From NCBI GenBank assembly GCA_027065825.1, contig JAMONM010000058.1, positions 38,958-102,957 of the forward strand: a stretch of DNA of 64,000 nucleotides, in the 5' to 3' direction. Shown here piece after piece: positions 55,700 to 64,000 of the stretch. Numbering within the stretch: position 1 is the stretch's first letter; every line of letters starts with the position of its first letter. The translations under genes and the position numbers were made by a program. Under the pieces are notes generated by a model, which saw only the letters and a list, made by a program, of their open reading frames with translations, made no database searches and had not been told where the DNA came from. This stretch comes from Campylobacterales bacterium (lineage in GTDB: Bacteria; Campylobacterota; Campylobacteria; Campylobacterales; Nitratiruptoraceae).

Positions 55700-56881
55700 C
55701 TATGTTCTGTATTCGGCGTTAATTTTTACATAGTCATATCCAAGATCGCATCCGTAGGCCCTAAAGCTACCTTTGCCCACTCCAAGGTCGCATTTTATTG
55801 TAAATTCCGATCTTTTCATGACGTTGTGAGCCGCCTTCTCCCTTTGGGAATCGAAAAGGATTTTGCCTCTATCGTAAACGGTTACGTCTTCGAAGGATAT
55901 TTTAAGTCTCTCCGGATAACATTCGATTCCGCACGCCCCAATGGTCGATGCGATTCTGCCCCAGTTTGGATCCTCCCCGAAAAGTGCGGTTTTAACCAGC
56001 AAAGAGTTGCTGAGCGCTTTTGCCGCTATTTGAGCCTCTAAATCGTTTTTTGCTCCGGTAATATCGAACGCGGCCACTTTAGTGGCGCCTTCCCCGTCCC
56101 GAACGATCATTAGGGCCAGTTCGTGCATTACCCGCTCCAGAGCGAATCTAAAGGCCTCTTTTTCGTAAACGTTGCTGCTTTTGTCGCTAAAGAGCAAAAC
56201 GGTGTCGTTTGTGGATCTGTCTCCGTCCACGCTGATAGCGTTGAAGGTGGTCTTTGCACACTCTTTAAGAAGCGGTTTCATCTCTTTGTCCTCGATTGAG
56301 GCGTCAGTTACTATGAAAGCCAGCATCGTAGCCATGGAGGGGTCTATCATTCCGGCCCCCTTCGCTACGCCGGCTATTTTAAAGCTTCCATTATCCGTTA
56401 TTACCTCGAAAGCCACCATTTTGGGATAGCTGTCGGTTGTCATTATAGCTCTGGCGAAAGAGAGGGAGTTCCGTTTTGATAGATCTATACCGTCTATAGC
56501 CCGTTCTATCTTTTCAAGCGGGAGCCTGACGCCTATTACGCCGGTGGAGCTCATTATCGGTTCGTGGATATGTTCAAATTTTTTATGGAGAGCTCTATAG
56601 ATAGTTTGGATATCTTCTATTCCCTCTTCGCCTGTTAGGGCATTGGCGTTTTTTGAGTTGACTAATAAAAAGTTGCTCTTAGTCACGCCTCTTCGTTCAA
56701 AATCGATCAAAGGGGCCGCCTTGAATCTGTTTTCGGTAAAGATGGCGGCTACCGAGCATATTTTTTTGGAGTAGATAAAGCCTACGTCGTAATCCTGTTC
56801 TTTCAATCCGGCTTTTACGCCGCCGCAAAAAAAGTTTTCAAGATTCTCTATCGAGCCTTTTAGGGGTATCAGTCTAAACAC
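55700..56881 (-). CDS. argJ: Bifunctional glutamate N-acetyltransferase / amino-acid acetyltransferase
   Basis: NSKNANA, SSTGVIG, KGAGMIDPSMATML, DGDRSTND, DGEGATK, DPNWGRI motifs. Confidence 0.97.
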   Translation of the reverse strand: MFRLIPLKGSIENLENFFCGGVKAGLKEQDYDVGFIYSKKICSVAAIFTENRFKAAPLIDFERRGVTKSNFLLVNSKNANALTGEEGIEDIQTIYRALHKKFEHIHEPIMSSTGVIGVRLPLEKIERAIDGIDLSKRNSLSFARAIMTTDSYPKMVAFEVITDNGSFKIAGVAKGAGMIDPSMATMLAFIVTDASIEDKEMKPLLKECAKTTFNAISVDGDRSTNDTVLLFSDKSSNVYEKEAFRFALERVMHELALMIVRDGEGATKVAAFDITGAKNDLEAQIAAKALSNSLLVKTALFGEDPNWGRIASTIGACGIECYPERLKISFEDVTVYDRGKILFDSQREKAAHNVMKRSEFTIKCDLGVGKGSFRAYGCDLGYDYVKINAEYRT

Positions 56882-56930
56882 GTGGCTGTCCGAAATAGAA
56901 ATTGAGGCGGTAAAAGGAGGGAAAAAATCG

Positions 56931-57125
56931 CTATATCAGCGATTTTTTCTTCATCGTTCTCAACGTGGAGGCGGCAACTTTGATCTTTTTTCTCGTACCG
57001 TCGGGTAGAGTTATCCTAACGGTTCTGAGGTTCGGTAGAAATCTTCTTTTTGTTTTATTGTTGGCGTGGCTGACGTTGTGCCCGCTCATCGGTCCTTTAC
57101 CTGTTATGGAACATTTTCTTGACAT
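56931..57125 (-). CDS. rpmB: 50S ribosomal protein L28
   Basis: [10 protein letters not shown]...[19 protein letters not shown]. Confidence 0.98.
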
Positions 57126-57287
57126 TTTCCTATCCTCTTATTAGGGAATTTAGCTCAGAATTTTATCCAAGAGAAGCTTAATGTTAAATGAATTTAAACT
57201 TTCTTTCAGCCAAACGGCTGTTGGACCAGGAACTCTTTTTGATATAATAGCATATTTAATCAAAAGGCTAGGCCTACAAGGATAGAT

Positions 57288-57926
57288 ATGCTGGTGGCAC
57301 CGAGTATCTTGAGCGCGGATTTTGCTAATCTAGGCCAAGAGGTTGAAGATATCTGCAAAGCTGGAGCCGATCTGGTACACGTTGACGTTATGGATGGCCG
57401 TTTCGTTCCCAACATGACTATCGGTCCCCTTGTGGTTGAGGCGGTATCCAAAACGGCCTCCGTTCCGTTGGATATACATCTGATGGTGGAGGATAACTCC
57501 TTTTTTGTGGATCTGTTCGCTCCTTTGCGACCCAAATTTATCACTTTTCACTACGAGAGCGAAGATCATCATCACAGAATAGCCCAAAAAATCAGGGATT
57601 ACGGAGTCTCGCCTGGAATAGTGATCAATCCGGCCACTCCCGTTTCTTTTTTGGGCGAGATAGTCAAATATGTGGATATGGTACTGGTTATGAGCGTAAA
57701 TCCTGGTTTTGGAGGTCAGAGGTTCATTCCGGTTTTTGACAAGATTAGGGAGCTAAAAGAGCTGATCGAAACGAAAAATCCTGATTGTCTGATCGAAGTG
57801 GACGGAGGGGTCAACGATTCAAACGTAAAAGCTTTAAAAGAGTCCGGAGTGGATATAGTCGTCGCCGGTAGCTACGTTTTCGGCAAAAAGGATAGGGCGG
57901 AAGCCATATCTTCGCTAAAGGTATAG
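57288..57926 (+). CDS. rpe: Ribulose-phosphate 3-epimerase
   Basis: APSILSAD, HVDVMDG, DIHLMV, MSVNPGFGGQ, EVDGG motifs. Confidence 0.98.
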   Translation: MLVAPSILSADFANLGQEVEDICKAGADLVHVDVMDGRFVPNMTIGPLVVEAVSKTASVPLDIHLMVEDNSFFVDLFAPLRPKFITFHYESEDHHHRIAQKIRDYGVSPGIVINPATPVSFLGEIVKYVDMVLVMSVNPGFGGQRFIPVFDKIRELKELIETKNPDCLIEVDGGVNDSNVKALKESGVDIVVAGSYVFGKKDRAEAISSLKV

Positions 57927-57928
57927 GC

Positions 57929-58522
57929 GTGAGAGTTAAAATTTGCGGTATCAGGAGTCTGCGCGATGCCATGTGGGCCGTAGAAGCCGGAGCCGACGCT
58001 CTGGGATTCGTGTTTTACGAGGGATCCCCCAGATACGTGACGAAAAAGGAGGCGGCGGAAATAATCGAAAAACTTCCTCCGTTCATAGAGAGGGTAGGAC
58101 TGTTTGTAAATAGCAGCATATCGGAAATTGAGAGAGTGTGCGTCGAGTGTAACATATCTTTGGCTCAGCTCCATTTCGATATAGACGAAAATTTTTTGGA
58201 GAGGTTGAGAGTTAAAGCTTTGCCCGTGGTCAGAGCGAAAACCCCCGAGGATTTAACCAAGTTCGCCGATAGATACAGACTCGTGGATGCTTTTGTAAAA
58301 GAGTACGGGGGAACGGGCAAGAGAATAGATATTAGATGGTTCGAAGACGTGGATCGTTCAAAAATAGTTTTGGCAGGAGGATTGACTCCACAGAACGTCT
58401 CCCAAGTAGCCGGTATGGGATTTTACGGAGTGGATGTCAGTAGCGGAGTGGAAGCCTCAAAAGGCGTAAAGGACAAAGAGAAGATCTTTGAATTCGTCAG
58501 GAGAGCCAAAGGTTTTGAATAG
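57929..58522 (+). CDS. trpF: Phosphoribosylanthranilate isomerase
   Basis: VKICGI, GFVFYEGSPR, QLH, GGTG, LAGGLTPQNV, DVSSGVE motifs. Confidence 0.96.
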   Translation: MRVKICGIRSLRDAMWAVEAGADALGFVFYEGSPRYVTKKEAAEIIEKLPPFIERVGLFVNSSISEIERVCVECNISLAQLHFDIDENFLERLRVKALPVVRAKTPEDLTKFADRYRLVDAFVKEYGGTGKRIDIRWFEDVDRSKIVLAGGLTPQNVSQVAGMGFYGVDVSSGVEASKGVKDKEKIFEFVRRAKGFE

Positions 58523-59267
58523 ACTCGATAAACTGGCGCAAAAGCTTAAAAAGCGCGATCTAAAAAGAGAGGAGTTTAACAATTTATTGCTGGCTCTTTA
58601 CGGAATGTTCGAAGATCCGGCGCTGCTGTACGAGACGTTAAAAGCCAGGGGATTCCCGATCGAAGAGCGCGAAGAGATAGTCGTTTTAAAGACGGCTAAA
58701 ACCCACTATATGGAACAGGAATATGTAATAGTGGACATAGAGACCTCGGGAAGCAAACCGGCAAACTCCCAAATAATAGAAATCGGAGCCATCAAATATA
58801 GAGAGAATCGGATTGTAGATAGGTTTGAAAGCTTCGTATATGCCTCGCAGTTGCCAGAATATATTACCAAACTGACTGGAATTACTCCGGAGGATCTGCT
58901 GGAGGCCCCGCCTCAGCGGGAAGTGCTGGCCCGTTTTAGGGAGTTTTTGGGAGACGGGGTCTTTGTGGCTCACAACGTCGGTTTCGATTACGGTTTTTTG
59001 TCGGATAAGTTGGAAGAGTCCGGATACGGCAGACTGGCAAATAGAAAACTGTGCACCATAGATCTGGCGAAGAGAACAATCAAATCGCAAAGATACGGAT
59101 TGAGATTCCTAAACGACCTGTTGGGACTCGATTCTTTGATCCATCATAGAGCTTACGCCGACGCGCTGACGGCTTTGAAGGTTTTAAAAATCTCTATGGA
59201 GCGCCTCCCGGCCGAGGTGGTAAGCGCCGAAGACTTGATAGATTTCAGCAAAAAAAGAAAGAGTTAA
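58515..59267 (+). CDS. DEDDh 3'-5' exonuclease (DnaQ/PolC exonuclease-like)
   Basis: IVDIETSG, VAHNVGFD, LCTIDLA, HRAYADA motifs; likely TTG start at 58515 (the ORF track gives 58488). Confidence 0.9.
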   Translation: MNRLDKLAQKLKKRDLKREEFNNLLLALYGMFEDPALLYETLKARGFPIEEREEIVVLKTAKTHYMEQEYVIVDIETSGSKPANSQIIEIGAIKYRENRIVDRFESFVYASQLPEYITKLTGITPEDLLEAPPQREVLARFREFLGDGVFVAHNVGFDYGFLSDKLEESGYGRLANRKLCTIDLAKRTIKSQRYGLRFLNDLLGLDSLIHHRAYADALTALKVLKISMERLPAEVVSAEDLIDFSKKRKS

Positions 59268-59270
59268 GAG

Positions 59271-60476
59271 CTATTTCGATTTTTTGCCGAAAACCAGTTG
59301 GTTTACCACTTTTGCCCCTATCATGTCTCCCCATACGTTTATGGAGGTTCTGAACATATCCAAAAATCTATCTACCGCTATGATCAAGGCTATATATTCT
59401 ATAGGGAGTCCCACGCTCTCCAGGATCATCGTCATCATTATAAGTCCGGCGCCTGGAATTCCGGCGGCTCCGATAGAGGCGAAAGTGGCCGTGACAAAGA
59501 TAGTAATCTGTTGCGAGAGGGTCAGTTCAACGCCGCTGATATTTGCGATAAACATAACGGCTATCGATTCATACAGGGCGGTACCGTCCATATTTATGGT
59601 AGCTCCAAGCGGCAGTACGAATCCGGAAACCTTTTTGTCCACGCCGCCCTTTTGCGTAGCGGTTTCGATCGAAACCGGCAGCGTCGCGGAACTGGAAGCC
59701 GTGGAAAAGGCAACCATCAGCGCCTCTTTGACTCTTGCGAAGTAGGAAAAAGGGTCTACTTTGCCGAAAAAATAGAGTATCGCTCCCAAAGTGACGAAAG
59801 CGTGCAGAAACAGTGCCGCCAAAACGGTCAAAACGTAACTGTAGAGCTCTATTAATGGATCTATTCCGTTTTTGGCTATGGTAAAGGCTATCAAAAAGAA
59901 AACCCCTATCGGAGTGAGAGAGATTACCCATTTGGCCAGTACCATCATTGAGTCGTTTATTGCGTCGAAAAAGTTATAAAGAGTAGATTTTTTCTCTTTT
60001 GCAATATACATCGTTCCCACGGCGAAAAAGATGGCGAAAAATATTATGGGCAGAATCTGTCCGTTTGCCAAAGCTTTGAAAATGTTCGAAGGTATAAAAG
60101 AGAGCAAAAAGTCACTTATTCCCACCTCTTTCGCCTCGATCGCGGCAGCTGAAGGCATATCCAAACTCATTTGCGAGCCTGGATCGAACATGTTGACCAT
60201 GACCAGCCCCAAGGCGACGGCCAAGGAGGTGGTGGAAAGATAATATATAAAGGCCTTGAGGCCGATTGATTTTAGATCGTCGCTGCTTTCCAGACCGACT
60301 ATCGCTACGAAAATAGAGGCGAAAACCAGAGGAATTATGAGCATCTTCAGCAGAGCCAGATAGATATCTCCCACCACTTTTAGCTCTAAAGCGGCGCTTT
60401 TGAAAAAATATCCGAAAAATATACCGGCAATAATGGCCAAAAAAGTCAAGTTTTCGAGTTTAAGCAGTTTGGACAT
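59271..60476 (-). CDS. Dicarboxylate/amino acid:cation symporter (GltP/GltT-type, probably Asp/Glu)
   Basis: STASSSATLP, GATINMDGTAL, AGIPG, LDMFRT motifs (NMDGT and the substrate Asp/Arg are retained). Confidence 0.9.
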   Translation of the reverse strand: MSKLLKLENLTFLAIIAGIFFGYFFKSAALELKVVGDIYLALLKMLIIPLVFASIFVAIVGLESSDDLKSIGLKAFIYYLSTTSLAVALGLVMVNMFDPGSQMSLDMPSAAAIEAKEVGISDFLLSFIPSNIFKALANGQILPIIFFAIFFAVGTMYIAKEKKSTLYNFFDAINDSMMVLAKWVISLTPIGVFFLIAFTIAKNGIDPLIELYSYVLTVLAALFLHAFVTLGAILYFFGKVDPFSYFARVKEALMVAFSTASSSATLPVSIETATQKGGVDKKVSGFVLPLGATINMDGTALYESIAVMFIANISGVELTLSQQITIFVTATFASIGAAGIPGAGLIMMTMILESVGLPIEYIALIIAVDRFLDMFRTSINVWGDMIGAKVVNQLVFGKKSK

Positions 60477-60515
60477 CTAACGCCTTTAAAATTTTTGCCC
60501 TATTTTAGCAAATGA

Positions 60516-61280
60516 TTATATAAAAATATTCAATACAAAAATCACTAAAACAGTTATTCCAAACAGAGCAAAGGTTCCTAAGGCGTTAGCCGCCTGGCAA
60601 CTGGTACAGTTTTTATATTTTTTGGTTTCGTAGTTGGAGTATATCAGATACGCTATCAGCAATATAGCGTTCAAGACCGCGCTTAGTTCCACCAATGAGG
60701 AGGTCTTTGCCCCCAGGAGCTTGGCTATGAACAAAACGGTCTGCAACAGGATACCGATTTTTGCCGCTGTGAGAATCCTGTCCTTTACAAAATAGGTTGG
60801 ACAGCTGGTTTCGGATCTGTAGTTTTTTAGAAATTTGGCGGCCTCTTTTTTTGGAAGTCTGTTAAAAAGTAGTCCGCCAAAAGTCAGGTCTATCTTTCTT
60901 TGCAGCCAGTATGAGTCTTCGCCGTTTGCTTCCAAGAAGCGCTGATTGTTGTTTTTGTCGTAGTACATCACTTTGATCTTTTCGTACCGTCTGATCTCAA
61001 AAACGGCGCCCGGAATGGTTTCGTCGCTTTCGCTGATAGTTACAAATCCCTCGTGAAAATAGATGGTTGGATTGATCAACTCTATAAACTCTTCTCCTTT
61101 TTTAAAGAGAATAACTTTTTTGGGAACGCCGAGCTCTATGGCCGCCAAACCTTTCAAGTCGTTAAGGAGGCATACGTCTTTCATTCTCTTTAGCAAACCA
61201 AAGAGCTCCTCGTCGAACTCTCTGACAAAACCGCTTATCTGCAAAAGTCTTTTGTCGGGAAATTTTAGCAGTTCGTCCAT
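60516..61280 (-). CDS. Degenerate peptide deformylase-fold protein with a C-terminal 3-TM, Cys-containing domain
   Basis: PDF scaffold (FPDKRL, GLAA, INP, RYEKIKV.Y.D) with the motifs altered to KGLAAIE, ESDET and QRKIDL; C160, C225 and C228 near the TM helices. Confidence 0.8.
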   Translation of the reverse strand: MDELLKFPDKRLLQISGFVREFDEELFGLLKRMKDVCLLNDLKGLAAIELGVPKKVILFKKGEEFIELINPTIYFHEGFVTISESDETIPGAVFEIRRYEKIKVMYYDKNNNQRFLEANGEDSYWLQRKIDLTFGGLLFNRLPKKEAAKFLKNYRSETSCPTYFVKDRILTAAKIGILLQTVLFIAKLLGAKTSSLVELSAVLNAILLIAYLIYSNYETKKYKNCTSCQAANALGTFALFGITVLVIFVLNIFI

Positions 61281-61321
61281 ATGGCTTTCCGAGTAGGGAA
61301 GGGAGAAAAACCCTTCCTGTT

Positions 61322-61504
61322 TTAATGGTGGCTTTTTGAGACCACTTTGAGCATTTTCAGATTTATAATGATAAATCTGATGAACTGATAAATCTTGCAG
61401 GTTCTCAAAAATCTCTGAAAAGGACCCGGCGCCATGGTTTCGAAAGATTTTTGATCGTAAGGCTTGATATTTTTCATTACCTCTTCGTATCCGCCGTTTG
61501 CCAT
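61322..61504 (-). CDS. Small protein (60 aa) downstream of sqr
   Basis: Strong AAGGAG RBS; amphipathic, basic C-terminal helix (FQRFLRTCKIYQFIRFIIINLKMLKVV). Confidence 0.75.
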   Translation of the reverse strand: MANGGYEEVMKNIKPYDQKSFETMAPGPFQRFLRTCKIYQFIRFIIINLKMLKVVSKSHH

Positions 61505-61528
61505 CTCTTCTCCTTTATATGGTGTTTT

Positions 61529-62989
61529 TTATTCTGGGATCAGCGTCCAGCCCGGTTTGAGCTGAGCTTTGTACATGAACATGTAGTGCAGGATATGTTT
61601 TATCCAGTGTCCGGCAAGTCCGATCTCTCCGAAGGTATATTCGGGATCCCTTCCGGTTCCGGGATACTTTTCGTAATCAGGAACTACAGGATATACCGTT
61701 AACGCCGCCGCTGTACCGTCCCACCAGCTCTTGCCAGTGCTTGCCACGCATGCGGCGCCCATTTCGGCCATAGAGGCGTGATGTTGAGGTTTGTCTGTTT
61801 TGCCCTGAATCATCTCCACAATGCTTTGGGCCACGGTTTTTCCTATTATTCCCGAAGGCATACCGGTTCTCGGAGGAGCCGGCGTTATCGGGGTTCCGTT
61901 TGGAGATTTCGCCGGTTTGGATATAGGATGCGGCGGCGCAAACGCGATTCCTACCGCGAACATATTGGGATAGTCCGGATTTTGATAATATTTAGGCCAG
62001 TCTTCACCTTTCCACTCTTCGAACGGTTTTGGGGTATAGTCGGCGTCCACTTTCATGAATCCGTTCGGCATAAAGACTTTATCGGTTATGTCGTTGCCCT
62101 CTTTGTCGAAAGCTTTCAGTCCGACTCCGCTAAAAGGAGGGATCAGCATTGCAAAATCGAACTCCTCTTCGCCCTTGCTGCCGTCTAGGAGTTCATAATA
62201 GGCTTTACCGGGCTCCACCTTCTCCACGTGGGCGCCGGTAATCCAGTCTACGCCCCTTTCTACAAATAGCGATTCGGCCATGATTTTACTGGAGGTGAGA
62301 TATCCTCCGAAGGTTATATGAACTCCGGCGACTCCGAAATCTCCTAAAAACTGTTCGTTGGAGATCCACTTTATATCCGCCTTGTCTCTTACGCCAGCTT
62401 TTCTTAGGTTGTATTCGATGTTAAAGATATACTCAAAGGCCGCTCCCTGACAGGTGCACATACCGTGTCCGGTACCGATTAGAAATTTCTGTCTCTCTCC
62501 TTTTTTCATCCTTTCGATAGCCGTTTGAAGGGCGTCGTTTGCCTGGGCGGCGTGCTGGTAGGTACAGACGGACCAGGTGTGTCCGTTTTCCGGACCCAAC
62601 CCTTCTGTAGCGGCGAAATTTAGTTTAGGTCCGGTGGCGTTTATGAGATAGTCATATTCCACCTCTTCGGTTTCCCCCTTTTTTGAAGGGTCGGTATATT
62701 CGATCGTTACGAATGGTTTGTCGCTTCCTTCCTTGCCTTCGGGATGGATGGAAACCGCTTTTGCCTGTTTAAAGTCGATGCCGGCCTTTTTGTATACCGG
62801 AGCCAGCTCGAATACCACGTCTTCGGGCCTCATTTCACCTACTCCCACCCAGATGTTGGAGGGAATCCAGTTCCATTTGCTGTTGGGAGAGACTACAACC
62901 ACCTCATGTTCGTCTCCCAACCAGTGTTTGGCGAATGTGGCGGCGGTATGTCCGGACACACCTGCCCCCAGGACTACGAGTCTTGCCAT
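61529..62989 (-). CDS. sqr: Sulfide:quinone oxidoreductase, type IV (SqrD-like)
   Basis: VLGAGVSG, WIPSNIWVGVG, TCQGAAFEY, APPH, PPRTGMPS, MGAAC, GEIGLAGHW motifs; start at ATG 62989 with AAAGGGG RBS. Confidence 0.9.
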   Translation of the reverse strand: MARLVVLGAGVSGHTAATFAKHWLGDEHEVVVVSPNSKWNWIPSNIWVGVGEMRPEDVVFELAPVYKKAGIDFKQAKAVSIHPEGKEGSDKPFVTIEYTDPSKKGETEEVEYDYLINATGPKLNFAATEGLGPENGHTWSVCTYQHAAQANDALQTAIERMKKGERQKFLIGTGHGMCTCQGAAFEYIFNIEYNLRKAGVRDKADIKWISNEQFLGDFGVAGVHITFGGYLTSSKIMAESLFVERGVDWITGAHVEKVEPGKAYYELLDGSKGEEEFDFAMLIPPFSGVGLKAFDKEGNDITDKVFMPNGFMKVDADYTPKPFEEWKGEDWPKYYQNPDYPNMFAVGIAFAPPHPISKPAKSPNGTPITPAPPRTGMPSGIIGKTVAQSIVEMIQGKTDKPQHHASMAEMGAACVASTGKSWWDGTAAALTVYPVVPDYEKYPGTGRDPEYTFGEIGLAGHWIKHILHYMFMYKAQLKPGWTLIPE

Positions 62990-63095
62990 AATGTACCCCT
63001 TTGTATGATTGTGATTTGATTCCAAAACAATTATAATCCTTTTATCTTTAAAGAATTATTATAGAAAACTGATGATTGATAAAATTAACTGATAG

Positions 63096-63137
63096 ATTTT
63101 TATAAGGTTGAATTAAATAATCAATGCTTATAAAAAT
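63096..63137. promoter_or_regulatory. 11-bp perfect inverted repeat upstream of the sqr promoter (candidate operator)
   Basis: ATTTTTATAAG-N20-CTTATAAAAAT; two TATAAT boxes on the minus strand at 63058-63063 and 63030-63035. Confidence 0.5.
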
Positions 63138-63167
63138 TATTAATCAAAATAATAAATATTGATGAAT

Positions 63168-63704
63168 TTATCCTATATGCGATAGATACTCGTTTTTGAA
63201 CTTCACGTATCTTTCGGCCGAGAGATAGAGCTGTTCCACCTCGGTATCGGTTAGTTTTCTTACGGCCTTTGCGGGAGATCCAATGATCAGGCTTCTAGGT
63301 TCGAATATCTTGCCTTTGGTAACCAGCGCTCCGGCGCCGACGATTGACTCCTCTCCGATAACCGCTCCATCGAGTATAGTGGCGTTCATGCCGATTAGCG
63401 ATCCTCGACCTATTTTGCAGCCGTGCAGCATAACTCGATGTCCCACTGTGACATCATCTTCTATTATTGTGGGATACCCGTCGCTCATATCGTCTTTTGT
63501 ATAGTGGGTAACATGAATCATCGTTAGATCTTGTATATTCACTCTATCTCCGATTTTTATATAGTGTACGTCTCCTCTGATGACGCAACCGAACCATACG
63601 GAAGAGTCGTTTCCTATTTGAACGTTGCCTATTACGGTCGCGCCCGGAGCTATCCAGCCATTTTCTCCTATTTTTGGAAACCATTTTTTGTAACTTAGCA
63701 ACAT
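63168..63704 (-). CDS. Gamma-carbonic anhydrase family (hexapeptide repeat) protein
   Basis: IRGDVHYI, NIQD, HVT, VGHRVMLHGC, GSPAKAVR motifs. Confidence 0.93.
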   Translation of the reverse strand: MLLSYKKWFPKIGENGWIAPGATVIGNVQIGNDSSVWFGCVIRGDVHYIKIGDRVNIQDLTMIHVTHYTKDDMSDGYPTIIEDDVTVGHRVMLHGCKIGRGSLIGMNATILDGAVIGEESIVGAGALVTKGKIFEPRSLIIGSPAKAVRKLTDTEVEQLYLSAERYVKFKNEYLSHIG

Positions 63705-63712
63705 TTTCTCTC

Positions 63713-64000
63713 CTAGCTCTCTTTGAGAAGTCTTCGGGCCAGTTTTTTGGCTCTGTTGACGCTGTTTTTTTTATGGGAGGCGTATATCATATTGGTGTAC
63801 TCCTCCATAATCAGCTGAGAGTTTATCGGCGTTCTGCCGGCAGATTCTATAGGGGTATACTCTCCGTTTTCCTGTAGCTCTCTGGCCAGCACGTTGTCGT
63901 TTATCTGCAGATTGAGTATCTCAAACAGCTTTTCGGAAAGCTCCTCGTCGAATATGGGCGTCATAAGTTCTATTCTTCTTTCGAGATTTCTTGGCATCCA
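63713..64000 (-). CDS. ppk1: Polyphosphate kinase 1, C-terminal fragment (truncated by the window edge)
   Basis: WMPRNLERRIELMTPI...DNVLAREL, the typical PPK1 C-terminus. Confidence 0.88.
   Translation of the reverse strand, partial: WMPRNLERRIELMTPIFDEELSEKLFEILNLQINDNVLARELQENGEYTPIESAGRTPINSQLIMEEYTNMIYASHKKNSVNRAKKLARRLLKES

What the first reader, a model, noticed from the sequence alone, without database searches (positions are those of the whole stretch)
60516..61280. Catalytically dead peptide deformylase fused to a three-cysteine membrane domain
Seen in sequence: a clear PDF scaffold in which the catalytic motifs are all broken. GxGxAAxQ reads LKGLAAIE, EGCLS reads ESDET (residues 84-88, metal Cys lost) and QHExDH reads QRKIDL (residues 127-132, both His ligands and the catalytic Glu lost). 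A basic amphipathic helix (LPKKEAAKFLKNY) follows, where type-1 PDFs have their ribosome-docking helix. After that come three predicted TM helices, with C160 and a C225-x-x-C228 motif predicted on the same (cytoplasmic) side. The gene is intact and lies on the same strand directly after sqr and its small peptide. Inference: this is a repurposed pseudoenzyme. It could be a membrane tether or sensor at the ribosome exit tunnel, or a persulfide/metal sensor tied to sulfide oxidation. I know of no characterised protein with this architecture.
Basis: partly seen in the sequence, partly recalled or inferred. Interest (0 to 1): 0.75.

Follow-up and report, generated by a model that had tools for sequence, protein, structure and literature searches.

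The report
Dead deformylase anchored beside sulfide:quinone reductase
This gene encodes a membrane-anchored copy of the enzyme peptide deformylase that has lost its catalytic residues, and it belongs to an undescribed family that sits next to a sulfide-oxidising enzyme in sulfur bacteria of the phylum Campylobacterota, so it is probably a sensor or helper for sulfide oxidation and is misannotated as a deformylase.

Summary
ORF 60516-61280 (minus strand, 254 aa) has a confident peptide-deformylase (PDF) fold. The metal-binding Cys, both His ligands and the catalytic Glu are replaced. Three transmembrane helices follow, with Cys160 just before helix 1 and a CxxC at the cytoplasmic start of helix 3.

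It is not a decaying gene. The family ("PdfL") turned up in at least 120 genome stretches, all Campylobacterota. All 119 ORFs checked were intact, and dN/dS was about 0.3.

In 92 of 109 loci that could be scored, the gene order is type I/IV-like sqr, then a conserved 53-60 aa one-helix microprotein, then pdfL. A structured hairpin lies between the microprotein gene and pdfL in 96% of the 84 loci folded. In 46 of 94 loci a soluble hybrid histidine kinase follows pdfL, at a median distance of 15 nt.

Natural split forms exist, with the PDF-like domain and the 3TM domain as separate genes. A second paralogue lies next to AhpD-like and DsrE-like genes.

The proposed ribosome-docking helix is not conserved in charge, so that idea has no support.

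My best reading is a thiol-based membrane adaptor or sensor of the SQR module. A structural or assembly subunit of SQR is nearly as likely. No biochemical function has been shown.

The parts
60516..61280 (-). pdfL: 254-aa protein made of a catalytically dead PDF-fold domain and a 3TM CxxC domain (stop codon at 60516-60518)
   Evidence: ORF. Pfam PF01327 at E=4.6e-23. AF2 model and Foldseek match. Family alignments.
60816..61280 (-). Cytoplasmic PDF-like domain (about residues 1-155), including the post-domain helix at 144-154
   Evidence: The structural positions of canonical PDFs are kept: P8, GLAA, N70-P71, E84, P90, R98, Y106, D108, Q127, D131 and G135.
61017..61031 (-). Motif 2 position: ESDET in place of EGCLS, so the metal-binding Cys is lost
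   Evidence: Alignment to H. pylori PDF. DNA read (GAA AGC GAC GAA ACC). Family table.
60885..60902 (-). Motif 3 position: QRKIDL in place of QHExDH, so both His ligands and the catalytic Glu are lost
   Evidence: DNA read (CAA AGA AAG ATA GAC CTG). QRKID is invariant in the close group. The family variants are QRKIDY, QQQLDY and QHHLDY.
60519..60803 (-). Membrane domain: C160-P161 beside the membrane, then three TM helices; the conserved YxxYExxKYxxC(T/S)xCQ motif spans the end of helix 2 and the start of helix 3
   Evidence: The domain also occurs as a stand-alone gene in L126 and L127. No Pfam or NCBIfam family passes threshold.
60597..60608 (-). C225-T-S-C228 (CxxC) at the N-terminal cap of TM helix 3
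   Evidence: DNA TGT ACC AGT TGC. C228 is invariant and C225 nearly invariant across the wide family. AF2 starts the helix at residue 226.
61296..61318 (-). Stem-loop between the microprotein stop codon and the pdfL start codon
   Evidence: The same position carries a run of at least 6 consecutive base pairs in 96% of 84 related loci, with median z=-3.5 against shuffles. The control gap between sqr and the microprotein gene has z=0.17.
61322..61504 (-). Conserved 60-aa microprotein (...TMxPGxFxxxxRTCxIWQFIRFxIINxKMLxVVxKSH(H)), predicted as a single helix at 28-58
   Evidence: (1463 clusters at 90% identity).
61529..63025 (-). Sulfide:quinone reductase, type I/IV-like. The start codon is uncertain: TTG at 63025, or ATG about 36 nt downstream.
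   Evidence: Best PDB match is Aquifex SQR 3HYV at E=2.7e-40. All three type-I cysteines align (C124, C156, C347). The typing follows PMC4584964.
59271..60476 (-). SDF-family (DctA/GltP-like) symporter, 39 nt downstream of pdfL. It keeps this position only in the Nitratiruptor group.
   Evidence: Pfam PF00375 at E=1e-130. It overlaps or abuts pdfL in L001 and L003.

Best explanation
The gene encodes a member of an undescribed protein family spread across the Campylobacterota, which I call PdfL. PdfL is not a deformylase.

Anatomy. A cytoplasmic domain keeps the PDF fold and its structural residues but has replaced all three metal ligands and the catalytic Glu. It connects through a juxtamembrane Cys-Pro to a three-helix membrane domain. 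An invariant CxxC caps helix 3 on the cytoplasmic face.

Context. PdfL is the third gene of a conserved module: a type I/IV-like sulfide:quinone reductase, a one-helix microprotein, a hairpin, then PdfL. In Sulfurimonas and Sulfuricurvum a soluble hybrid histidine kinase follows directly.

Most likely mechanism. PdfL acts as a thiol-based membrane adaptor or sensor for the SQR module. The Cys triad at the membrane-cytoplasm interface would respond to sulfane sulfur, or to quinone-linked oxidation, produced when SQR turns over. The PDF-like domain would keep a peptide-binding groove without chemistry and dock a partner protein (the microprotein, SQR, or the kinase where present) to pass that state on.

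Shown: the fold, the loss of catalytic residues, purifying selection, the synteny, the domain separability and the kinase coupling. Inferred: the topology, the thiol chemistry, partner docking and signalling.
For: - Fold and lost catalytic residues.
- NCBIfam PDF equivalog models all score far below their cut-offs (48.5 bits against 103.95).
- Family size and range: 47 representatives at 50% identity, and at least 120 genome stretches, all Campylobacterota.
- Purifying selection: dN/dS is 0.32 for the N-domain and 0.31 for the C-domain, against 0.12 for sqr. All 119 ORFs are intact.
- Synteny: sqr, microprotein, pdfL in 92 of 109 scorable loci, including L004 at 35% identity, where the outer neighbours differ.
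- Kinase coupling: a soluble PAS-HisKA-HATPase-REC-Hpt kinase lies a median 15 nt after pdfL, and is present in 46 of 94 loci.
- Split locus L127: sqr, microprotein and a soluble PDF-like protein, plus a stand-alone 3TM gene directly after a 7TMR-DISM kinase, with the orthologous hybrid kinase nearby.
- Second paralogue: it neighbours an AhpD-like CxxC protein in 9 of 16 loci and a DsrE-like protein in 4 of 16, which is a thiol and sulfur context.
- A conserved hairpin before pdfL suggests an expression level different from sqr and the microprotein gene.
- The CxxC sits at the N-terminal cap of a helix. From general knowledge, this is the geometry of redox-active CxxC motifs in thioredoxin and DsbA.
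Against: - No experiment or expression data exist. No RNA runs were available for the window.
- The kinase is absent next to pdfL in the Nitratiruptor group, which includes this window. There the next gene is an SDF symporter, and the 64-kb window holds no homologue of the kinase. It is also absent in Sulfurovum and Nitratifractor loci.
- In L126 the 3TM gene follows the microprotein gene with a 4-nt gap and there is no PDF-like domain. That fits a direct structural partnership as well as it fits sensing.
- If this SQR faces the periplasm, as reported for some type I enzymes (general knowledge), cytoplasmic thiols could not touch its product directly.
- C160 is missing in 3 of 27 wide-family representatives and in both split forms.
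Confidence: 0.4

Rival explanations
1. PdfL is a structural or assembly subunit of SQR. With the microprotein it forms the membrane anchor, or a maturation factor (for example for covalent FAD attachment or membrane insertion), for the type I/IV-like SQR. In this reading the CxxC is structural, binds a metal, or relays sulfane sulfur. The kinase adjacency is secondary.
For: - The trio is conserved across the phylum while the outer neighbours differ.
- In L126 the 3TM gene starts 4 nt after the microprotein stop codon, with no PDF-like domain and no kinase beside it.
- About half of the loci, including this window, have no kinase next to pdfL.
- The microprotein is predicted as a single long, moderately amphipathic helix.
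Against: - The conserved hairpin before pdfL suggests expression lower than or separate from sqr and the microprotein gene, which does not fit a stoichiometric subunit.
- A second paralogue exists without any sqr nearby.
- From general knowledge, characterised SQRs are monotopic and need no anchor subunit.
- The tight coupling to a kinase in 46 loci is left unexplained.
Confidence: 0.3
2. PdfL is part of a dedicated export or insertion device. Together with the microprotein it helps place a signal-peptide-less SQR on or across the membrane, and the PDF-like groove holds a terminal peptide of the client protein.
For: - This SQR has no N-terminal signal peptide, because the FAD-binding GxGxxG motif sits at the very N-terminus.
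- Motif 1, which forms the peptide-binding strand in real PDFs (general knowledge), is largely kept.
- From general knowledge, Rhodobacter SQR reaches the periplasm by an unresolved route. The review PMC4584964 raises the question of SQR localisation in this group.
Against: There is no similarity to any known translocase or insertase. Three helices would have to oligomerise to form a channel. The SQR-free paralogue and the kinase coupling are not explained. This reading is pure inference.
Confidence: 0.08
3. One reading: a membrane tether at the ribosome exit tunnel. The basic helix after the PDF-like domain would dock on uL22/uL23 as in type 1 PDFs, and bring nascent chains to the membrane.
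For: The helix occupies the position of the C-terminal helix of type 1B PDFs. In this window it is basic, with net charge +4.
Against: - The charge is not conserved. The family median is -1 and the range is -5 to +5. Many members read like 'SEEEKEKF...LEFG'.
- Conserved positions lie in the fold core and the membrane motif, not in this helix.
- The genomic context concerns sulfur and signalling, not translation.
Confidence: 0.05
4. It is still an active deformylase using an unusual active site. The alternative extreme is a decaying paralogue with no function.
For: Databases call it 'peptide deformylase'. A few distant members keep a Cys at the motif 2 position (P0035, P0038, P0044, P0078 and L023).
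Against: - No member has the HExxH motif. The catalytic Glu is Lys, Gln or His, and the His ligands are Arg or Gln and Tyr, Leu or Met.
- It scores below every NCBIfam PDF cut-off.
- Decay is excluded by 119 intact ORFs, dN/dS of about 0.3 and newly fixed invariant motifs.
Confidence: 0.03

Closest known systems
Type 1B bacterial peptide deformylase (e.g. Helicobacter pylori Def, PDB 2EW5/2EW7; E. coli Def)
   Same: Same fold, at about 29% identity to the H. pylori enzyme. The structural residues are kept: the YP motif, GLAAxQ, INP, the Glu of motif 2, the PG after it, Arg98, the YxD motif, and Q..D..G of motif 3. A helix follows the catalytic domain.
   Different: The Cys, both His ligands and the catalytic Glu are all replaced. 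A 3TM CxxC domain is fused at the C-terminus. The gene lies in a sulfide-oxidation module. It fails all NCBIfam PDF cut-offs.
Catalytically inactive PDF paralogues known from Firmicutes (e.g. the second def-like gene of Staphylococcus aureus). This comparison comes from my own knowledge and was not tested here.
   Same: A PDF-fold paralogue with substituted catalytic motifs that coexists with a real def gene.
   Different: As far as I know those paralogues are soluble, have no membrane or CxxC domain and have no link to sqr. No such architecture came up in the literature searches.
Thiol-based sulfide, persulfide and quinone sensors (SqrR, CstR, BigR; the Cys-dependent quinone sensing of ArcB and RegB). 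These are known from the literature and I compare mechanism only.
   Same: Conserved Cys residues next to sqr, coupling to a regulator, and a downstream kinase with the PAS-HisKA-HATPase-REC-Hpt layout of ArcB.
   Different: There is no sequence or fold relationship. Those sensors are DNA-binding repressors or membrane kinases. Here the Cys residues sit on a separate 3TM pseudoenzyme and the kinase is soluble.
Membrane CxxC proteins: DsbB/VKOR, and the FeoB-associated Cys-rich membrane protein (PF12669)
   Same: A small helical membrane protein with a CxxC at the membrane interface, in a quinone-related setting.
   Different: PF12669 matches only at E=0.29 and 11.8 bits, against a cut-off of 27. 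There is no hit to DsbB or VKOR. The CxxC is predicted to be cytoplasmic, not periplasmic, and there are three helices instead of four or five.

Membership tests
Peptide deformylase (EC 3.5.1.88; Pfam PF01327) | PDF alpha+beta fold | tested here: met
   PF01327 at E=4.6e-23, profile positions 2-154 of 156. Foldseek match to 2ew7 at E=3e-11, TM-score 0.69 normalised by the target.
Peptide deformylase (EC 3.5.1.88; Pfam PF01327) | Motif 1, G-phi-G-phi-A-A-x-Q | tested here: inconclusive
   It reads LKGLAAIE here. The family consensus is x-x-(G/A)-L-(A/S)-A-x-Q, so the first Gly is lost, the rest is mostly kept, and Gln is kept in most members.
Peptide deformylase (EC 3.5.1.88; Pfam PF01327) | Motif 2, EGCLS, with the metal-binding Cys | tested here: not met
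   ESDET here. Elsewhere the motif reads E-x-(T/S/D)-x-Y. Cys occupies this position in only 1 of 119 aligned members.
Peptide deformylase (EC 3.5.1.88; Pfam PF01327) | Motif 3, (Q)HExxH, with two His ligands and the catalytic Glu | tested here: not met
   QRKIDL here. No family member has HExxH.
Peptide deformylase (EC 3.5.1.88; Pfam PF01327) | Reaches the curated equivalog score (NCBIfam TIGR00079 and others) | tested here: not met
   48.5 bits against a cut-off of 103.95. All seven NCBIfam models listed, six of them PDF models, are below their cut-offs.
Peptide deformylase (EC 3.5.1.88; Pfam PF01327) | Deformylase activity, or complementation of def | not testable with these tools
   This needs an enzyme assay. 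I also could not check whether a canonical def exists elsewhere in the same genome. The 64-kb window has none.
FeoB-associated Cys-rich membrane protein (PF12669) | Profile match above the gathering score | tested here: not met
   E=0.29 and 11.8 bits, against a cut-off of 27, over residues 206-230 only.
Type I/IV sulfide:quinone reductase (the neighbouring gene, not the finding itself) | FAD-binding fold plus the three Cys of Aquifex SQR (C124, C156, C347) | tested here: met
   3HYV at E=2.7e-40, and all three Cys align. Type IV is inferred because the review PMC4584964 reports no type I in this group and says types I and IV share these cysteines. No phylogeny was run.
PdfL family as proposed here (PDF-like domain plus 3TM CxxC domain) | A dead PDF-like domain, Cys-Pro before TM1, the Y-x-x-Y-E-x-x-x-(Y/F)-x-x-C-(T/S)-x-C-Q motif, and a position after sqr and the microprotein gene | tested here: met
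   All of these features are present in the window protein.

The most novel reading that the evidence does not exclude
PdfL, the microprotein and (where present) the soluble hybrid kinase form a previously unknown membrane input device. It reports SQR turnover, sensed as sulfane sulfur or quinone redox state, to gene regulation in the dominant sulfur-oxidising Campylobacterota. A pseudo-deformylase serves as the signal-coupling domain, which would be a new use of the PDF fold and a new class of sulfide sensor.
Probability: 0.25. Interest if true: 0.8.

Novelty: new variant of a known kind. Interest (0 to 1): 0.66.

Why it matters
Sulfurimonas, Sulfurovum, Sulfuricurvum and Nitratiruptor dominate sulfide oxidation at hydrothermal vents, redoxclines and sulfidic aquifers. 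Their type IV SQR is regarded as a core enzyme (PMC4584964).

A conserved microprotein and a membrane pseudoenzyme sit beside that enzyme in most genomes examined, yet they do not appear in pathway descriptions. Public records name the pseudoenzyme "peptide deformylase", which is a functional misannotation.

If PdfL is a sensor, it would explain how these bacteria regulate sqr without the known persulfide repressors. If it is a subunit, SQR in this phylum is a multi-protein complex and not a lone monotopic enzyme. Either result adds a clear example of a metalloenzyme fold reused without its metal.

Tried and rejected
- The search for related loci on genome contigs with the wide alignments A4 and A5 failed because no stretch was conserved enough. 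I replaced it with a degenerate DNA pattern for the CxxC motif. That pattern requires Y..YE...[YF]..C[ST].CQ..N, so it misses divergent members and biases the sample towards motif-positive proteins.
- A profile search with the C-terminal domain through the search for homologous proteins returned mostly short fragments and added little.
- RNA evidence could not be obtained. Only DNA metagenome runs hold the window. There are no RNA runs.
- The Nitratiruptor SB155-2 transcriptome paper and the Sulfurovum indicum transcriptome paper do not mention the gene.
- Literature searches linking deformylase to sqr or to these genera found nothing relevant.
- The N-terminal roughly 160 aa of the coupled kinase match no Pfam family or PDB sequence.
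- I could not obtain model coordinates, so Cys-Cys distances and the arrangement of the two domains (pTM 0.57) were not examined.
- I could not check for a canonical def gene in the same genome.
- The dN/dS values use NG86 on stop-to-stop ORFs at dS between 0.2 and 1.5. They are rough and probably overestimates.
- Decay, an active deformylase and conserved ribosome docking were considered and rejected. The reasons are given under the rival explanations.

Full report
**1. The observation**

The ORF lies at 60516..61280 on the minus strand and encodes 254 aa. Pfam PF01327 matches residues 2-146 at E=4.6e-23. The best solved relative is the H. pylori deformylase 2EW5, at E=2e-12. An AF2 model built on 32 homologues has a mean pLDDT of 83.5, and Foldseek finds only deformylases at the top of the list (2ew7, E=3e-11).

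The alignment shows EGCLS replaced by ESDET (residues 84-88) and QHEIDH replaced by QRKIDL (127-132). I checked both codon by codon against the DNA. All NCBIfam deformylase models score far below their cut-offs, for example 48.5 bits against 103.95.

Motif 1 is only mildly changed. It reads LKGLAAIE here, while the family consensus is GLAAxQ.

Three hydrophobic helices follow. Kyte-Doolittle windows place them at 168-193, 191-217 and 228-254, and AF2 places them at 165-188, 194-221 and 226-253. C160-P161 lies just before helix 1. C225-T-S-C228 sits at the N-terminal cap of helix 3. The absence of a signal peptide and a weak charge bias (+1, -1, +1) put the PDF-like domain, C160 and the CxxC in the cytoplasm. 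That topology is inferred. The observation as a whole is confirmed.

**2. A real, conserved family**

A first search found 33 homologues of the same length at 35-60% identity. The named ones come from Nitratiruptor, Nitrosophilus and Campylobacterota MAGs, and every name given by a source reads "peptide deformylase" or "hypothetical protein". QRKID, E84, C160-P161 and YETxKYKNCTSCQ are invariant in that set.

A profile of the C-terminal domain alone, scored against 1.8 billion representatives, found 47 proteins. Most are 255-275 aa long with the same architecture.

All are Campylobacterota: Sulfurimonas, Sulfuricurvum, Sulfurovum, Nitratifractor, Hydrogenimonas, Arcobacteraceae and Sulfurospirillum.

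All 119 ORFs used in the codon analysis are intact, and none combines the metal-binding Cys with HExxH. The positions that remain conserved are the structural ones of real deformylases: YP, GLAA, INP, the Glu of motif 2, PG, Arg98, YxD and Q..D..G. Exactly the four catalytic or metal-binding positions are replaced.

dN/dS is about 0.32 for the N-domain and 0.31 for the C-domain, against 0.12 for sqr and 0.26 for the microprotein. The method is rough and the values are probably overestimates. Decay is excluded.

**3. Genomic context**

In Nitratiruptor SB155-2, in Nitrosophilus kaiyonis and in a distant MAG (35% identity, with different outer neighbours), the order is sqr (484-498 aa), a 55-60 aa ORF, then pdfL.

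Across 125 loci, 92 of the 109 that could be scored show this trio on one strand.

The SQR aligns best to Aquifex SQR and keeps all three cysteines of that enzyme, C124, C156 and C347. According to the review PMC4584964, this group lacks type I SQR, and type IV shares these cysteines with type I. Type IV is therefore the likely assignment, but I did not test it with a phylogeny.

The small ORF is a strongly conserved microprotein with the consensus ...TMxPGxFxxxxRTCxIWQFIRFxIINIKMLxVVxKSH. It has 1463 clusters at 90% identity and no Pfam family. AF2 predicts a single helix at residues 28-58.

**4. Operon fine structure**

- The gap between sqr and the microprotein gene is short (median 33 nt) and unstructured (median z=0.17).
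- The gap between the microprotein gene and pdfL is longer (median 75 nt). It holds a strong stem-loop in 96% of the 84 loci folded, with median z=-3.5. The stem sequences are not conserved. In the window this hairpin lies at 61296-61318.
- The gene after pdfL is tightly coupled to it. In the Nitratiruptor group it is an SDF symporter, at a 39-nt gap here and overlapping or abutting pdfL in L001 and L003.
- In 46 of 94 loci with enough downstream sequence, which by record title are mostly Sulfurimonas and Sulfuricurvum, the next gene is a hybrid histidine kinase (PAS-HisKA-HATPase-REC-Hpt) at a median distance of 15 nt.
- That kinase shows no TM-like hydrophobic window in 45 of 46 sequences; the one exception lies around residue 359, not at the N-terminus. 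It always has at least two Cys in its unassigned N-terminal 170 aa.

**5. Natural experiments**

The 17 loci without sqr include second copies in six genomes that also carry the linked copy, for example Sulfurimonas sp. CS5 (L009 and L093). Their neighbours are an AhpD-like CxxC protein in 9 of 16 loci, a DsrE-like protein in 4 of 16, and a protein of about 230 aa with no Pfam match in 9 of 16.

Two metagenomic loci split the protein:
- In L127, sqr and the microprotein gene are followed by a soluble 164-aa PDF-like protein that carries QRKVDY. A stand-alone 104-aa 3TM protein with a CTGC motif is encoded convergently, directly after a 7TMR-DISM kinase. The orthologous hybrid kinase lies nearby.
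- In L126, the 3TM gene starts 4 nt after the microprotein stop codon, and there is no PDF-like domain.

The two domains are therefore separable modules that stay within the same neighbourhood. The C160 equivalent is absent from both split forms.

**6. Interpretation**

The ribosome-tether idea loses its only support. The helix after the PDF-like domain has net charge +4 here, but the family median is -1, with a range of -5 to +5.

Two readings remain close.
- I favour a thiol-based adaptor or sensor of the SQR module, at about 0.4. The reasons are the recurrent kinase coupling, the hairpin that sets pdfL apart from sqr and the microprotein gene, the CxxC at a helix cap, and the thiol and sulfur context of the second paralogue.
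- A structural or assembly subunit of SQR comes next, at about 0.3. It fits L126 and the lineages without an adjacent kinase, which include this window.
- An export or insertion role, ribosome docking, and residual deformylase activity are minor alternatives.

No biochemical step has been shown.

**7. Comparison and novelty**

The protein belongs to the PDF fold but fails the defining catalytic features of the enzyme family. No Pfam, NCBIfam or PDB entry covers the membrane domain. Searches of the held literature found no description of this architecture or of a link between deformylase and sqr.

I rate it a new variant of a known kind: a pseudoenzyme built on a known fold, with a new fusion partner and a new genomic association. 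It matters because it sits beside a core enzyme of ecologically dominant sulfur oxidisers and is systematically misannotated.

Noticed in passing
window 61296-61318 (minus strand), and the same position in 84 related loci: A stem-loop lies directly after the microprotein stop codon and before pdfL. Its position and strength are conserved (96% of the 84 loci, median z=-3.5) but its sequence is not. The gap between sqr and the microprotein gene has no such structure. It may be an attenuator, a terminator or an mRNA-stabilising hairpin that sets different expression levels.
   Followed up: partly
window 61322-61504 (minus strand): An unannotated type of 53-60 aa microprotein with a nearly invariant C-terminal half (RTCxIWQFIRFxIINIKMLxVVxKSH) and a single predicted helix. 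It has 1463 clusters at 90% identity and no Pfam family. In 88 of the 109 scorable loci it is found between sqr and pdfL.
   Followed up: partly
e.g. L013:3490-6238 (+); 46 of 94 loci with enough downstream sequence: A soluble hybrid histidine kinase (unassigned N-terminal domain with at least 2 Cys, then PAS, HisKA, HATPase, REC and Hpt) starts a median 15 nt after the pdfL stop codon, mostly in Sulfurimonas and Sulfuricurvum. The 64-kb window has no homologue.
   Followed up: partly
L126:323-809 and L127:5001-6470: Natural split forms. L127 has sqr, the microprotein gene and a soluble PDF-like protein, plus a separate convergent 3TM gene placed after a 7TMR-DISM kinase. L126 has sqr, the microprotein gene and a 3TM gene, with no PDF-like domain.
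   Followed up: yes
L009, L021, L031, L034, L062, L067, L080, L097, L115 (unlinked paralogues): A second pdfL copy without sqr occurs in six genomes that also hold the sqr-linked copy. It lies next to an AhpD-like CMD protein with a CxxC, a DsrE-like protein, and a protein of about 230 aa with no Pfam match.
   Followed up: partly
window 62989-63025: The start of sqr is uncertain. The ORF list gives a TTG start at 63025 (498 aa). An ATG at codon 13 (MARLVVLGAG, directly before the FAD-binding GxGxxG) would give 486 aa, and the called orthologues are 484-491 aa.
   Followed up: no
window 55700-64000: This end of the window has the same gene order as Nitratiruptor sp. SB155-2 and Nitrosophilus kaiyonis: argJ, rpmB, rpe, trpF, an RNase T-like exonuclease, the SDF symporter, pdfL, the microprotein gene, sqr, a hexapeptide-repeat protein and ppk. 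Only DNA runs hold the sequence, one labelled hydrothermal vent metagenome. The source is probably a vent member of the Nitratiruptoraceae.
   Followed up: partly
P0035, P0038, P0044, P0078, L023: A few distant family members keep a Cys at the motif 2 position (EECIS, EHCVS, ESCES, ESCNY, EECSY) but lack HExxH. They may be evolutionary intermediates between an active Def and PdfL.
   Followed up: no
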